Shown here piece after piece: positions 55,510 to 58,626 of a stretch of 64,000 bases of DNA (within the stretch, counting starts at the first letter, position 1; every line of letters starts with the position of its first letter). The notes under the pieces are model-generated. The model made no database searches. It saw only the letters and a list, made by a program, of their open reading frames with translations, and was not told the DNA's origin. The DNA comes from an uncultured bacterium (GTDB taxonomy: Bacteria; Omnitrophota; Omnitrophia; Omnitrophales; CAZLUT01), in NCBI GenBank assembly GCA_964562805.1, contig CAZLUT010000001.1, forward strand, positions 32,574-96,573. The letters are read 5' to 3'. The translations under genes were made by a program, and so were the position numbers.

Positions 55510-56409
55510 ATGTCTTCATCCTCTAATTTTCTAGAAAATCTTTATAAAACAGCACCTGTCGGTCTCTGTTATTTTGACCGGGAATTTCGTTTTGCTTACG
55601 TTAATGATTGGCTGCTGGATATACTTCAAAGGCCAGCTTCTGAAATTCTTGGAAAGAAATTTGCTGATTTGGTTCCTGAGATAGCGCACCAAATTGAACC
55701 ACAGCTGCATGAAATGGTCGAAACGCGTAAACCCCTTCTCAATCTTGAAACTACAGGCTCTGTTCCCCCGGACATTCATAAAATCAGAACCTTTCTTGCG
55801 AACCACTACCCAATCTTTTCTAAGACGGGGGAATTTGAGGGTATTAGTGTGGTCGTTCAAGATGTAACCGAAAGAAAAAAGGCCGAAGAGGCTTACAAAA
55901 AGAGTGAAGAAAAGTTTCGAGCTCTAGCTGAGCAGTCTCCGAACATGATTTTTATTAATGCGAATGGGCGTGTTGTTTACGCCAATCAAAGATGTGAAGA
56001 AATTATCGGCTATTCCCATGAAGAATTTTATGCGCCTGATTTCAATTTTAAAACTTTGATTTCCTCTAGGCATTTGGAGAAAGTCGAAGCAAATTTTCGT
56101 AAGCACATGGAAGGCAGGGAAGTTGAGCCGTATGAATATGATATTGTCACCAAAGACGGAAAAATACTTCCTACCATCATAACTACTAAACTTATTAATT
56201 ATGAAAAGGGAAAAGCGATTCTCGGTATCGTTACTGATATTACTGAATACAAAGCCGCTCAAGGAGCCGTTATCAAGGCTAAAGAGGAGTTAGAAGGTAA
56301 GGTTGAAGAGCGGACTAGTGACCTTGTTAAAACAAATCAGGAGCTTGAAGAAGCGCTTAAGCAAAGAAAGGAAGCTGAAGAGGCTTTAAGGGCTTCAGAA
56401 GAAAAATGA
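55510..56409 (+). CDS. Multi-PAS sensor histidine kinase, N-terminal part (two PAS domains); terminated by an in-frame TGA that interrupts the gene
   Basis: PAS modules separated by SEEKFRAL-type linkers. The reading frame stays open and PAS-like for 35 codons after the TGA at 56407-56409 and joins the next ORF in the same frame. Confidence 0.6.
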   Translation: MSSSSNFLENLYKTAPVGLCYFDREFRFAYVNDWLLDILQRPASEILGKKFADLVPEIAHQIEPQLHEMVETRKPLLNLETTGSVPPDIHKIRTFLANHYPIFSKTGEFEGISVVVQDVTERKKAEEAYKKSEEKFRALAEQSPNMIFINANGRVVYANQRCEEIIGYSHEEFYAPDFNFKTLISSRHLEKVEANFRKHMEGREVEPYEYDIVTKDGKILPTIITTKLINYEKGKAILGIVTDITEYKAAQGAVIKAKEELEGKVEERTSDLVKTNQELEEALKQRKEAEEALRASEEK

Positions 56410-56514
56410 CGATCGCTTGTTGATAATGCCCCCAGCACTATTATTCTTTCGGACCGCGAGGGGAAAATTCAATTTATAAACAAAACAGGCGCTCAGGGAG
56501 GGGATCCCGAGCGA

Positions 56515-58626
56515 GTGGTCGGCGCAAATATTTTTGATTACATCGCACCTTCTTTTCATAACACAGTTCGAAAAGCTATCGAAAAAACATTTCGAACGGG
56601 CCAGCCTGGATTTTATGAATGTCAGGGCACCACACCCAATGGTGAGACTTATTGGTATGAAACCCACATCGGCCCAATTAAGTCTGACCATGAAACCACC
56701 GCGGTAATTTTATTTGCTGTTAATACCACTGAGAGAAAACTGGTTGAAAAATATTTACGTGACCAAGATGAGCTGCTTAAAAATATTATTACTAACATCC
56801 CGGCTTATGTTTCTTGGAAAGACCGGGACGCTGTTTATTTAGGAAGTAATGAAACGTTTGCGAAAGCCGCTGGGTTTTCCGGTCCCAAAGAACTGGTGGG
56901 CAAGACCGACTATGATATGGCATGGGAAAAGGAGAAAGCTGATTTCTATAGAAAGTGCGACAAGGAAGTTATAGAGAGTAATCAGCCTATGCTCAATGTC
57001 GAAGAAACCCAGCATCGGGCTGACGGCTCGAAAATAGTTCTTTTAACAAATAGGGTTCCCTTAAGGGATATTAATGGGCAGGCGATTGGCGTACTGGGAA
57101 TTAATTATGATATGACCGAGCGCAAGCGCGCGGAAGAAGCGTTGAAAGAATCTGAAGTAAAATACCGCACCCTGTTTGAGTCAGCCGCCGAGGGCATTAT
57201 TTTAGCTAATATCAAAACTAAAAAATTTCATTTCGCTAATCCTGCTATTTGTAACCTCTTAGGATATACCCAGGAAGAACTTCTTGAGATGAGCGTTGAG
57301 AATATTCATCCAAAAGAATCTCTGGGTGAAGTGAGCGCCGCTTTTGAAGAGCAAGTGCGGCAAGGCGGGGGACTTGCCCTGGGCTTACCTTGCAAGAGGA
57401 AAGACGGATCGGTCATTTATGTAAATATTAACGCAGCCATGATGCGTATTGGCGACATTGATTTTATGGTGGGATTTTTTATGGATATTACCGAGAGTAG
57501 AAAAATTCAAGAGGCACTTCAAGAAAGCGAAGCCCAATTTAGGGCGCTTTTTGAAACCTCATCCGATGCCATTATGCTTCTTGATGAAAAGGCATTTTTT
57601 GACTGCAATGAAGCCACGCTAAAATTATTTGGCGTACCGACAAAAAAGGAATTTACAACCTTTCACCCTGCCGAATTGTCTCCTCCTTATCAGCCAAATG
57701 GTGTTGATTCAATGACGATGGCAAACCAAAGGATTAAAGAAGCTTACACAACCGGCAAAAATCAGTTTGAGTGGATGCATCGGAGAACTAACGGAGAAGA
57801 TTTTCCGGCTGAGGTGTGGCTGAGTGTTTTGACGTTAAAGGGCAAAAAGGTGCTTCAAGCCACTGTGCGTGATATTTCTGAAAGAAAACACAGGGAAGCC
57901 CTGGAAGCTAAATCCGAATTTTTATCAATGGTATCCCATGAGCTTAAAACACCACTTCATTGTATTGCGGAGGGAATTAATATCGTTTTAGATGGTGCGG
58001 CAGGAAAAATTAATCGTGAGCAAAAAGAGATGCTTTCAACTTCTAAAAAAAGCGTCGATAGGTTGAGCCGCCTGATCACAAGCGCTCTCAGTTACCAGAG
58101 ATTGGAAGCCGACTCAATCGCTTTAGAAGAAGGTCATTATAATGTGAATGAATTGATTACTGGTATTGGCACACTGCTTGACGCATTTGTTAGAGCCAGA
58201 CGCATAAAATTTAAACTGAATTTAACCAAACCATTGCCGCGTGTTTGGTGTGACCGTGACAAAATTATTCAAGTGCTTTGGAACTTGATTGATAATGCCT
58301 TTAAACATACCCACAAGGGAACTGTTACTATCTCGACAGCGCTTGATAAAAGAAAAAATATGGTCAAGGTATCCGTTAAAGATACGGGTGTTGGAATTGA
58401 AAAATCGAGATTGGATAAACTTTTTAATGGCCTTAAGAATCATCGAAATAATCACCCAACCGGTGCGGCGGGCAGCGGTCTAGGGTTGATTATTTCAAAG
58501 CGGATTATAGAGCATCACGGCGGCACTATAACAGTTGAATCAAAGCGCCGGGCGGGAAGCATATTTTCTTTTATGCTGCCCATAAAAAAGACTAAGAAAA
58601 AGTTTGTAGAAAGGAGAAAGAAATGA
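56515..58626 (+). CDS. Multi-PAS sensor histidine kinase, C-terminal part (about 3 PAS domains, HisKA, HATPase_c). Same frame as 55510-56409 and probably one gene of about 1039 codons
   Basis: H-box SHELKTPLH around 57930, HATPase_c G-box GSGLGLIISKRIIEHHGG. The annotated GTG start lies inside a PAS domain that begins upstream of it. Confidence 0.6.
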   Translation: MVGANIFDYIAPSFHNTVRKAIEKTFRTGQPGFYECQGTTPNGETYWYETHIGPIKSDHETTAVILFAVNTTERKLVEKYLRDQDELLKNIITNIPAYVSWKDRDAVYLGSNETFAKAAGFSGPKELVGKTDYDMAWEKEKADFYRKCDKEVIESNQPMLNVEETQHRADGSKIVLLTNRVPLRDINGQAIGVLGINYDMTERKRAEEALKESEVKYRTLFESAAEGIILANIKTKKFHFANPAICNLLGYTQEELLEMSVENIHPKESLGEVSAAFEEQVRQGGGLALGLPCKRKDGSVIYVNINAAMMRIGDIDFMVGFFMDITESRKIQEALQESEAQFRALFETSSDAIMLLDEKAFFDCNEATLKLFGVPTKKEFTTFHPAELSPPYQPNGVDSMTMANQRIKEAYTTGKNQFEWMHRRTNGEDFPAEVWLSVLTLKGKKVLQATVRDISERKHREALEAKSEFLSMVSHELKTPLHCIAEGINIVLDGAAGKINREQKEMLSTSKKSVDRLSRLITSALSYQRLEADSIALEEGHYNVNELITGIGTLLDAFVRARRIKFKLNLTKPLPRVWCDRDKIIQVLWNLIDNAFKHTHKGTVTISTALDKRKNMVKVSVKDTGVGIEKSRLDKLFNGLKNHRNNHPTGAAGSGLGLIISKRIIEHHGGTITVESKRRAGSIFSFMLPIKKTKKKFVERRKK

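What the first reader, a model, noticed from the sequence alone, without database searches (positions are those of the whole stretch)
56350..56520. A single in-frame TGA splits a roughly 1039-codon multi-PAS histidine kinase exactly where a conserved aromatic linker residue is expected
ORFs 55510-56409 and 56515-58626 are in the same frame and separated only by the TGA at 56407-56409. The 35 codons after it (RSLVDNAPSTIILSDREGKIQFINKTGAQGGDPER) are a normal PAS N-terminus that runs into the second ORF. That ORF has no start codon at a domain boundary. The protein's other inter-PAS linkers read KKSEEKFRALAEQSP, KESEVKYRTLFESAAEG and QESEAQFRALFETSSD. The interrupted one reads RASEEK[TGA]RSLVDNAPS, so the stop replaces the conserved F/Y position. 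A one-base change from TGG (Trp, also aromatic) would give TGA. TGA is clearly a real stop elsewhere in this window, for example in the ABC ATPase and mdh genes. This argues against a recoded genetic code. The possibilities are a very recent nonsense mutation (incipient pseudogene), a sequencing or assembly error, or regulated stop-codon readthrough. With readthrough, a PAS-only protein and a full kinase would be made from one gene.
Basis: seen in the sequence. Interest (0 to 1): 0.55.

Follow-up and report, generated by a model that had tools for sequence, protein, structure and literature searches.

The report
Nonsense mutation splitting a sensor kinase
A six-PAS sensor histidine kinase of an uncultured bacterium carries a genuine stop codon (TGA) where its relatives have a conserved tryptophan (TGG); this is an ordinary, evolutionarily young nonsense mutation, not a sequencing error, a recoded genetic code or a demonstrated readthrough device.

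Summary
TGA at 56407-56409 is the only break in a 1039-codon frame: two PAS domains and a coiled coil, then the stop, then four PAS domains, HisKA and HATPase_c.

The stop is real. At least eight independently assembled contigs from several samples carry the identical sequence.

The genetic code is standard. The eight other TGA stops sit at natural protein ends. There is no SECIS-like element.

The stop lies inside the third PAS S-box domain, at about position 7 of 126 in TIGR00229. It is not between domains. An exhaustive search whose query excluded the site found Trp at this position in 39 of 47 PAS domains at least 40% identical. Their motif is SEEKWRSLVENAPNII; here it reads SEEK*RSLVDNAPSTII. 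The event is therefore TGG to TGA, one G-to-A change.

There is no second lesion in the 738 downstream codons. The 35 codons between the stop and the next start are not degraded. The mutation is therefore young, or the region is still translated.

The main product is probably a 299-aa PAS-only fragment. Kinase could still come from passive Trp-tRNA readthrough, which would restore the wild-type residue, or from a GTG at 56515 preceded by a strong Shine-Dalgarno-like GGGAGGGG. Neither route is shown. No orthologue exists in public data. Interest is low.

The parts
55030..55476 (+). Stand-alone response-regulator receiver gene (148 aa), first gene of the putative RR-HK-orf166 operon
   Evidence: Pfam Response_reg 84.5 bits. 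Gene calls in public contigs. A promoter-like site at 54949-54978 matches 10 of 12 positions; this is a consensus match only.
55510..56406 (+). 5' part of the kinase gene: PAS1 (aa 7-123), PAS2 (aa 134-246) and a roughly 55-aa helical/coiled-coil linker (aa 247-299). It would be released as a 299-aa protein if termination occurs.
   Evidence: Pfam PAS_4, PAS_9 and PAS hits. Translation. The exact 299-aa product is called on 9 public contigs.
56407..56409 (+). In-frame TGA, followed by C. It replaces the conserved Trp codon (inferred TGG, G-to-A at 56409) at about position 7 of the PAS S-box model.
   Evidence: sequence. (TIGR00229 positions 1-124 of 126 span the stop). (Trp in homologous domains). 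(identical in all public contigs).
56410..56514 (+). 35 codons with no start codon of their own. They encode the N-cap helix and the first two beta strands of PAS3 and are translated only if the TGA is read through.
   Evidence: PAS_4 model positions 1-109 of 110 align from residue 4 after the stop. A low-confidence AF2 model (pLDDT 56) places H3-6, E9-14 and E19-26 here. Mean identity to the 40 closest domains is 51% here against 42% for the rest of the domain.
56490..56513 (+). Local hairpin CGCUC-A-GG...CC-C-GAGCG that contains the SD-like GGGAGGGG (56496-56503) and ends one base before GTG 56515
   Evidence: inverted repeat. (MFE -16.8 kcal/mol, z -1.85, 12 of 200 shuffles fold as well), so significance is marginal; anti-SD duplex of -11.4 kcal/mol, reached by only 0.4% of 903 internal in-frame start-like codons. 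Spacer is 11-13 nt.
56515..58626 (+). 703-aa ORF as called by public pipelines (GTG start). It holds the last two thirds of PAS3, then PAS4 (about 56794-57129), PAS5 (about 57160-57495), PAS6 (about 57526-57894), HisKA (about 57907-58110) and HATPase_c (about 58252-58587).
   Evidence: Pfam. The H-box SHELKTP, N-box NLIDNAFKH, G1 DTGVGI and G2 GSGLGL are read directly. With the GTG start, PAS3 begins at model position 32 of 103 (PAS_9) or 45 of 126 (TIGR00229). No further stop or frameshift in 738 codons.
58623..59123 (+). orf166. Its start overlaps the kinase stop (ATGA). It has a signal-peptide-like N-terminus and no family hit. It is probably translationally coupled to the kinase 3' end.
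   Evidence: overlap. (no Pfam or NCBIfam hit). The SD AAGGAG is 5 nt upstream.

Best explanation
The TGA is a real nonsense substitution of a conserved tryptophan codon (TGG to TGA, G-to-A at 56409). It lies near the start of the third PAS S-box domain of a soluble six-PAS histidine kinase. The organism uses the standard code, and the substitution is present in the consensus of every sampled population.

Shown: the stop is real; it sits at a Trp position inside a domain; TGA terminates other genes; nothing else in the gene is damaged.

Inferred: RF2 terminates most ribosomes here, releasing a 299-aa PAS-PAS-coiled-coil fragment. The allele is therefore a young loss-of-function or strongly attenuated allele (an incipient pseudogene).

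Residual kinase could arise in two unprogrammed ways. (a) Near-cognate decoding of UGA by Trp-tRNA(CCA) in the weak UGA-C context. This would reinsert the original Trp and give wild-type full-length protein at a level of a few percent or less. (b) Initiation at GTG 56515 behind the SD-like GGGAGGGG. This would give a 703-aa kinase whose first PAS domain lacks its N-cap and two of its five strands.
For: Reality of the stop: 100% identical DNA including the TGA in contigs of different lengths and ends. Sources are ENA ERZ23498660, ERZ23498677 and ERZ23498639, JGI 3300009008, 3300007510, 3300007511 and 3300008954, and Logan SRR8062321. These contigs differ elsewhere: an A8/A9 run at 55479-55486 and one SNP. 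They are therefore not copies of one assembly.

Standard code: stops in the window are TAA 20, TAG 15, TGA 9. The 8 other TGA stops end complete domain architectures and are followed by another stop within 0-8 codons. There is one in-frame TGA against 184 TGG codons.

Ancestral Trp: among the hits, the 7 linkers with the RS[LV][VA]xN[AV]P context all have W. Ten of the 11 best-matching domains have W at the aligned site. The exhaustive HMMER search used only the 127 aa after the stop. W precedes the match in 12 of 14 domains at 45% identity or more, 27 of 33 at 40-45% and 42 of 56 at 35-40%. Below 30% the site falls to generic Y/L/F.

Continuity: TIGR00229 (62 bits, model 1-124 of 126) and BLAST alignments run across the stop without a gap.

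Youth, or continued translation: 738 open codons follow the stop. The 35 orphan codons are conserved at least as well as the rest of the domain.

Leakiness: UGA is misread as Trp at low frequency in E. coli and Salmonella, and reached 6% in a B. subtilis reporter (PMC7918605). The level is set by competition between Trp-tRNA and RF2 (PMC10570021). A C at +4 weakens UGA termination (PMC5289835).
Against: No orthologue or intact allele was found anywhere, so neither the ancestral codon nor the age of the event can be observed directly. The population is clonal, so dN/dS cannot be measured.

The absence of any decay is equally what one expects if the downstream part is still expressed and under selection. 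The SD-like motif in front of the first downstream start is unusually strong (0.4% tail). It is encoded by less common codons: CAG 39%, GGA 30%, GGG 16%. This could mean the second ORF is a functioning gene rather than a dead remnant.

Only consensus contigs were examined, not reads. A minority TGG allele cannot be excluded.
Confidence: 0.8

Rival explanations
1. Adaptive gene fission. After, or together with, the nonsense mutation the locus works as two genes. One is a 299-aa PAS-PAS-coiled-coil protein. The other is a 703-aa kinase initiated at GTG 56515 from its own Shine-Dalgarno sequence. The remnant of PAS3 is a dispensable N-terminal tail.
For: GGGAGGGG lies 11-13 nt upstream of GTG 56515 with an anti-SD duplex of -11.4 kcal/mol. 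That is as strong as the best real starts in the window and is matched by only 4 of 903 internal in-frame start-like codons. Spacers of 12-13 nt are seen at other predicted starts. All public pipelines call this ORF. The catalytic boxes and three complete PAS domains remain intact. The allele is the only one seen in all samples.
Against: The start lies inside a PAS fold, at model position 32 of 103 or 45 of 126. It removes the N-cap and two beta strands, and no PAS Pfam model reaches its gathering score for the truncated domain. The 35 codons that neither product would contain are not degraded and are better conserved than the rest of the domain. The spacer is at the long end of the range, and the SD lies in a hairpin. 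No relative is split in this way. The SD test was chosen after seeing the motif.
Confidence: 0.12
2. Programmed (selected) stop-codon readthrough. The UGA is maintained so that one gene yields a majority PAS-only protein and a minority full-length kinase. The ratio would be tuned by the balance between Trp-tRNA and RF2.
For: The UGA-C context is the weakest bacterial terminator (PMC5289835). Readthrough by Trp-tRNA would restore exactly the conserved residue (PMC10570021). The downstream frame is fully intact. In-frame stops under purifying selection are reported as widespread in bacteria (PMC7918605).
Against: There is no stimulatory structure. The fold of 56395-56500 has z -0.49. Rfam finds nothing beyond an E=3 match on the wrong strand. 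The +4 C is the first base of the conserved Arg codon, so it carries no extra information. Conservation of the stop cannot be shown because no orthologue exists. A single isolated case in about 19,750 codons is what random mutation predicts.
Confidence: 0.05
3. Sequencing or assembly artefact: the true codon is TGG.
For: Only consensus contigs were inspected. Several of the assemblies may derive from overlapping sets of libraries from one study site.
Against: The same base appears in at least 8 contigs built by different pipelines (JGI, a third-party ENA re-assembly, Logan) from at least 4 metagenomes. The change is a substitution outside a homopolymer and keeps the frame, which is not a typical systematic error.
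Confidence: 0.02
4. Recoding: UGA read as selenocysteine, or a UGA-to-Trp/Gly genetic code.
For: UGA is the codon used for Sec and for the code 4 and code 25 reassignments. Trp is the residue expected at the site.
Against: Eight genes in the window terminate naturally at TGA. No other in-frame TGA occurs in about 19,750 codons, including two ORFs of about 3000 codons. There is no SECIS-like hairpin. Homologues have Trp at the site, not Cys or Sec. A structural linker or N-cap residue is not a plausible place for a redox-active residue.
Confidence: 0.01

Closest known systems
Bacterial genes with a single in-frame stop ('pseudo-pseudogenes'; Belinky et al. 2021, PMC7918605; Feng et al. 2022, PMC9122581, seen by abstract only)
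   Same: A single nonsense substitution in an otherwise intact gene. The codon is TGA, the leakiest stop. The downstream frame is preserved. Low-level expression of the full product is possible.
   Different: Those studies rest on conservation (dN/dS) or on proteomics. Neither is available here, because the lineage has no sequenced relative and the population is clonal.
Natural UGA suppression by wild-type tRNA-Trp(CCA) in E. coli, Salmonella and B. subtilis, and phage Q-beta A1 readthrough (the phage example is from my own knowledge)
   Same: UGA followed by a weak +4 base. The inserted residue would be Trp, which is exactly the residue conserved at this site.
   Different: Q-beta readthrough is conserved and needed for infectivity. 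Here nothing shows that the stop is maintained or that readthrough product matters. No measurement exists for this organism.
Multi-PAS 'PAS domain S-box' sensor histidine kinases (TIGR00229 repeats + HisKA + HATPase_c)
   Same: The read-through protein has six PAS S-box repeats joined by DITERK...SEE+[FYW]R linkers, a HisKA with the SHELKTP H-box, and an HATPase_c with N, G1 and G2 boxes. It is paired with an upstream receiver gene.
   Different: It is interrupted by the stop. The best full-length homologues are only 23-39% identical over most of the query, with higher values only for local segments, so it has no orthologue and no known signal.

Membership tests
PAS domain S-box (TIGR00229 / Pfam PAS_4, PAS_9) - the interrupted domain | Match to the curated model above its cut-off over the full model length | tested here: met
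   TIGR00229 scores 62 bits against a cut-off of 22.9, model positions 1-124 of 126, running across the stop. PAS_4 scores 44.2 bits against 23.1, positions 1-109 of 110, starting 4 aa after the stop.
PAS domain S-box - as encoded by the annotated 703-aa ORF alone | A complete five-stranded PAS fold encoded by the ORF | tested here: not met
   From GTG 56515 the match begins at PAS_9 position 32 of 103 (26.6 bits, below the cut-off of 27), PAS_4 position 44 of 110 (21.2, below 23.1) and TIGR00229 position 45 of 126. The AF2 secondary structure places two strands before the GTG (low confidence).
Two-component sensor histidine kinase (HisKA family) | HisKA dimerisation/phospho-acceptor domain with the conserved His, and an HATPase_c with N, G1 and G2 boxes | tested here: met
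   HisKA 44.8 bits (cut-off 26.9) and HATPase_c 91.5 bits (cut-off 26.4). SHELKTP, NLIDNAFKH, DTGVGI and GSGLGL are read. Activity was not tested.
Nonsense-mutation pseudogene or attenuated allele | Stop codon at a position that is a sense codon in homologues, one mutational step away | tested here: met
   Trp in 39 of 47 domains at least 40% identical. TGG to TGA is a single transition.
Nonsense-mutation pseudogene or attenuated allele | Signs of relaxed constraint downstream (further stops, frameshifts, loss of conserved residues) | tested here: not met
   738 open codons. The orphan 35 codons are 51% identical to homologues against 42% for the rest of the domain. This is compatible with a very young lesion or with continued expression.
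Nonsense-mutation pseudogene or attenuated allele | An intact allele in the population or in sister species | tested here: inconclusive
   No intact allele or orthologue was found in 5.8 billion clustered proteins, 1.84 billion representatives, GTDB genomes or JGI contigs. Reads were not available.
Programmed stop-codon readthrough | Readthrough-promoting context or downstream RNA structure beyond what the coding sequence requires | tested here: not met
   UGA-C is present but is explained by the Arg codon. The fold has z -0.49. Rfam gives no hit.
Programmed stop-codon readthrough | Evolutionary conservation of the stop, and detection of both protein products | not testable with these tools
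   No orthologues exist. No proteome or ribosome-profiling data are available.
Selenoprotein (bacterial Sec insertion) | SECIS hairpin immediately 3' of the UGA, and Cys or Sec at the homologous position | tested here: not met
   (no structure or family). (homologues have Trp).
UGA-reassigned genetic code (tables 4 and 25) | UGA frequent inside genes and not used as a terminator | tested here: not met
   Presence of prfB and the tRNA-Trp type could not be checked because the window contains no tRNA gene.

The most novel reading that the evidence does not exclude
The UGA is kept by selection as a built-in attenuator or dual-output switch. Most ribosomes stop and release a PAS-PAS-coiled-coil protein. 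A physiologically variable fraction, set by Trp-tRNA against RF2 in the weak UGA-C context, inserts the native Trp and makes the wild-type six-PAS kinase. An SD/GTG at 56515 possibly adds a third, N-terminally trimmed kinase. That would be a chromosomal bacterial signalling gene that uses near-cognate Trp readthrough to set sensor stoichiometry.
Probability: 0.06. Interest if true: 0.55.

Novelty: new member of a known kind. Interest (0 to 1): 0.17.

Why it matters
The finding matters mainly for annotation. The two ORFs that public pipelines call (299 aa and 703 aa) are halves of one kinase gene disrupted at a Trp codon. They should be flagged as such and not treated as a PAS-only protein plus a kinase with a truncated PAS.

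It is also a clean natural example of the mildest kind of nonsense mutation. Here TGG has become TGA followed by C, and the commonest misreading would restore the wild-type protein. Such alleles are the raw material for the 'in-frame stops that are not pseudogenes' discussed in the literature.

Without expression data or relatives, this case adds no new principle.

Tried and rejected
1. Orthologue comparison. The full read-through protein was searched against 5.8 billion clustered proteins. Only the self 703-aa ORF came back. The next hits are generic multi-PAS proteins, 23-39% identical over most of the query.
2. A junction-spanning query returned only the self 299-aa ORF. I set max_evalue too strictly, and the word-index tool also missed the other self ORF in each search. 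Its negatives are therefore weak.
3. The exhaustive HMMER search confirmed that no PAS3 relative exceeds about 50% domain identity.
4. An exact DNA pattern with NNN at the stop codon found 0 matches in metagenome contigs. A protein scan of the same collection found only relatives at 34-35% identity.
5. MnmE was used as a synteny anchor in GTDB genomes. The best hits were 44-46% identical and spread over Planctomycetia, Nitrospinota, Omnitrophota and Verrucomicrobia. There is no close genome and no usable synteny, and the phylum is unresolved.
6. dN/dS across population contigs was impossible. All contigs are 100% identical in the gene, apart from a run of 10 Ns in one scaffold and one SNP near a contig end.
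7. SECIS or readthrough RNA elements: nothing found.
8. The +4 C as a signal was rejected. 57% of Arg codons in the window start with C.
9. ATGA-type coupling at the stop was rejected. The ATG at 56406 opens only a 5-codon out-of-frame ORF, read directly.
10. A literature search for the sample accessions found nothing, so the sampling site is not documented here.
11. Single-sequence AF2 of PAS3 gave only pLDDT 56. I used it only for the order of secondary-structure elements, and no fold search was attempted.
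Full report
**Observation**

ORF 55510-56409 (299 aa) and ORF 56515-58626 (703 aa, GTG start) share a frame. 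Translating 55510-58626 gives 1039 codons with a single internal stop, TGA at 56407-56409, in ...EALRASEEK*RSLVDNAPSTIILSDREGKIQFINKTGAQGGDPERVVG... No ATG, GTG or TTG lies in frame between the stop and GTG 56515.

Pfam finds two PAS domains before the stop. After it come four PAS domains, HisKA and HATPase_c. The H, N, G1 and G2 boxes are intact.

The gene sits between a stand-alone receiver gene (55030-55476) and a 166-codon ORF whose ATG overlaps the kinase stop. It is the only gene in the window that a lone stop splits inside a domain.

**Is the stop real?**

The exact 299-aa product, ending at this TGA, is called on nine public contigs, and the 703-aa product on three. The contigs come from:
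- three ENA assemblies (SAMN10231912, SAMN10231913, SAMN10231914);
- four JGI metagenomes (3300007510, 3300007511, 3300008954, 3300009008);
- one Logan assembly (SRR8062321).

Their lengths range from 1 kb to 82 kb. All are 100% identical to the window through the gene, TGA included. They differ elsewhere: an A8/A9 run at 55479-55486 in two contigs, and one SNP at a contig end. They are therefore independent assemblies.

Some of these data sets may derive from the same libraries, and I could not see reads. A consensus-level error shared by different pipelines at a non-homopolymer substitution is nevertheless very unlikely.

**Genetic code and selenocysteine**

The window's stops are TAA 20, TAG 15 and TGA 9. 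The eight other TGA stops close complete domain architectures. For example, Ldh_1_C ends at residue 310 of 313 and SpoIIE at 685 of 692. Each is followed by another in-frame stop within 0-8 codons. The TGA at 56407 is followed by 738 open codons.

There is one in-frame TGA against 184 TGG codons. The RNA downstream of the stop folds no better than shuffles (z -0.49). Rfam finds nothing at gathering level, and only chance-level matches locally. The window contains no tRNA gene. Recoding and Sec are rejected.

**What stood at this codon?**

The stop is not between domains. TIGR00229 (PAS domain S-box) aligns positions 1-124 of 126 across it, placing it at about model position 7. PAS_4 positions 1-109 of 110 start four residues after it.

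In generic S-box linkers of the homologues the site is F (119), Y (101), L (38) and rarely W (5). However, every linker with this domain's own signature, RS[LV][VA]xN[AV]P, has W (7 of 7). Ten of the 11 best-matching domains align W to the stop.

For an unbiased test I searched 1.84 billion representatives exhaustively with only the 127 residues after the stop. I then read the residue preceding each match:

| Domain identity to query | Domains with W / total |
|---|---|
| 45% or more | 12 / 14 |
| 40-45% | 27 / 33 |
| 35-40% | 42 / 56 |
| 30-35% | 21 / 61 |
| 25-30% | 17 / 123 |

The 19 best-scoring domains all have W. A typical motif is SEEKWRSLVENAPNII; here it reads SEEK*RSLVDNAPSTII.

Of the residues seen at the site, only W (TGG) and L (through TTA) are one step from TGA. 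The event is therefore almost certainly TGG to TGA, a G-to-A transition at 56409.

**Age and state of the gene**

No orthologue or intact allele exists in any collection I could search. The nearest genomes have MnmE at only 44-46% identity. The population is clonal. Conservation of the stop and dN/dS therefore cannot be assessed.

Internally there is no second lesion in 738 codons. The 35 codons that no annotated ORF covers are on average 51% identical to the 40 closest domains, against 42% for the rest of the domain. So there is no decay. The mutation is young, or the region is still translated.

**How the locus most likely works now**

Shown: a genuine UGA at a Trp site, and a standard code.

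Inferred: RF2 terminates most ribosomes, yielding a 299-aa PAS-PAS-coiled-coil fragment. Two unprogrammed routes could still give kinase.

(a) Near-cognate decoding.
- UGA is the leaky stop. When misread in enterobacteria it is read as Trp, and a B. subtilis reporter gave 6% (PMC7918605).
- The level is set by competition between Trp-tRNA and RF2 (PMC10570021).
- A C at +4 is the weakest context (PMC5289835).
- Here the next base is C, and readthrough would restore the native Trp. But the C is merely the first base of the conserved Arg codon, and 57% of Arg codons start with C. It is not evidence of design.

(b) Internal initiation.
- GTG 56515 is preceded by GGGAGGGG. Its anti-SD duplex is -11.4 kcal/mol, as strong as the best true starts.
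- Only 0.4% of 903 internal in-frame start-like codons reach that strength.
- The motif is built from less common codons.
- The spacer is 11-13 nt, at the long end of what the window's genes show.
- The motif lies in a marginal hairpin (z -1.85).
- The resulting protein would start at PAS model position 32-45. It would lack the N-cap and two of the five strands.
- This is a real oddity, but I chose the test after seeing the motif.

**Comparison with what is known**

This is a member of the well-described class of bacterial genes carrying a single in-frame stop (PMC7918605; PMC9122581). The protein family is ordinary: multi-PAS S-box histidine kinases.

It fails the testable criteria for programmed readthrough (no stimulatory element), for Sec and for code reassignment. 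It meets the pseudogene criterion of a stop at a sense position inside a domain. It does not meet the criterion of downstream decay.

**Verdict**

This is a real TGG-to-TGA nonsense allele, present in the consensus of every sampled population, in an otherwise intact six-PAS kinase. It is most likely a young loss-of-function or attenuated allele (confidence about 0.8).

The adaptive two-gene reading (about 0.12) and selected readthrough (about 0.05) remain open and are testable with reads, the full genome and proteomics. Error and recoding are effectively excluded. Interest is low.

Noticed in passing
window 5355-13583 and 13583-22813 (+): Two adjacent giant ORFs of 2742 and 3076 aa; the second starts on the last base of the first one's stop codon (TAATG). 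Pfam recognises only an N-terminal HATPase_c (aa 149-295) in the first and a GNAT acetyltransferase domain (aa 2264-2352) in the second. More than 90% of both is unannotated.
   Followed up: partly
window 55479-55486 (intergenic, between the receiver gene and the kinase start): A poly-A run is A8 in the window and most contigs, but A9 in two independently assembled contigs (L005/L002 and L010). It is the only indel among the population contigs. It lies 24 nt upstream of the kinase ATG, which has no obvious SD.
   Followed up: no
window 58623-59123 (+): orf166 follows the kinase with an ATGA overlap and has a strong SD. It has a signal-peptide-like N-terminus and two repeated xSDxQMxKxKxx motifs reminiscent of Spy/CpxP/ZraP-type periplasmic proteins (my reading only). 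There is no Pfam or NCBIfam hit.
   Followed up: partly
window 37978-39984 and 39908-41320 (+): Two ORFs of 668 and 470 aa overlap by 77 nt in different frames. Neither has a Pfam match at E of 1e-5 or better. This may be a wrong start call or a frameshifted novel gene.
   Followed up: no
window 53266-54651 (mnmE) and the whole window: The lineage has no close relative among 185,579 GTDB species representatives. The best MnmE matches are 44-46% identical and scattered over Planctomycetia, Nitrospinota, Omnitrophota and Verrucomicrobia. Yet the same clonal sequence recurs in several metagenomes.
   Followed up: partly
window 31312-33390 (+); 45875-46909 and 46906-47877 (+): A CHASE2-SpoIIE (PP2C phosphatase) sensor protein, and a tandem pair of SPFH/Band-7 genes joined by an ATGA overlap. 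These are ordinary and are noted only for context.
   Followed up: no
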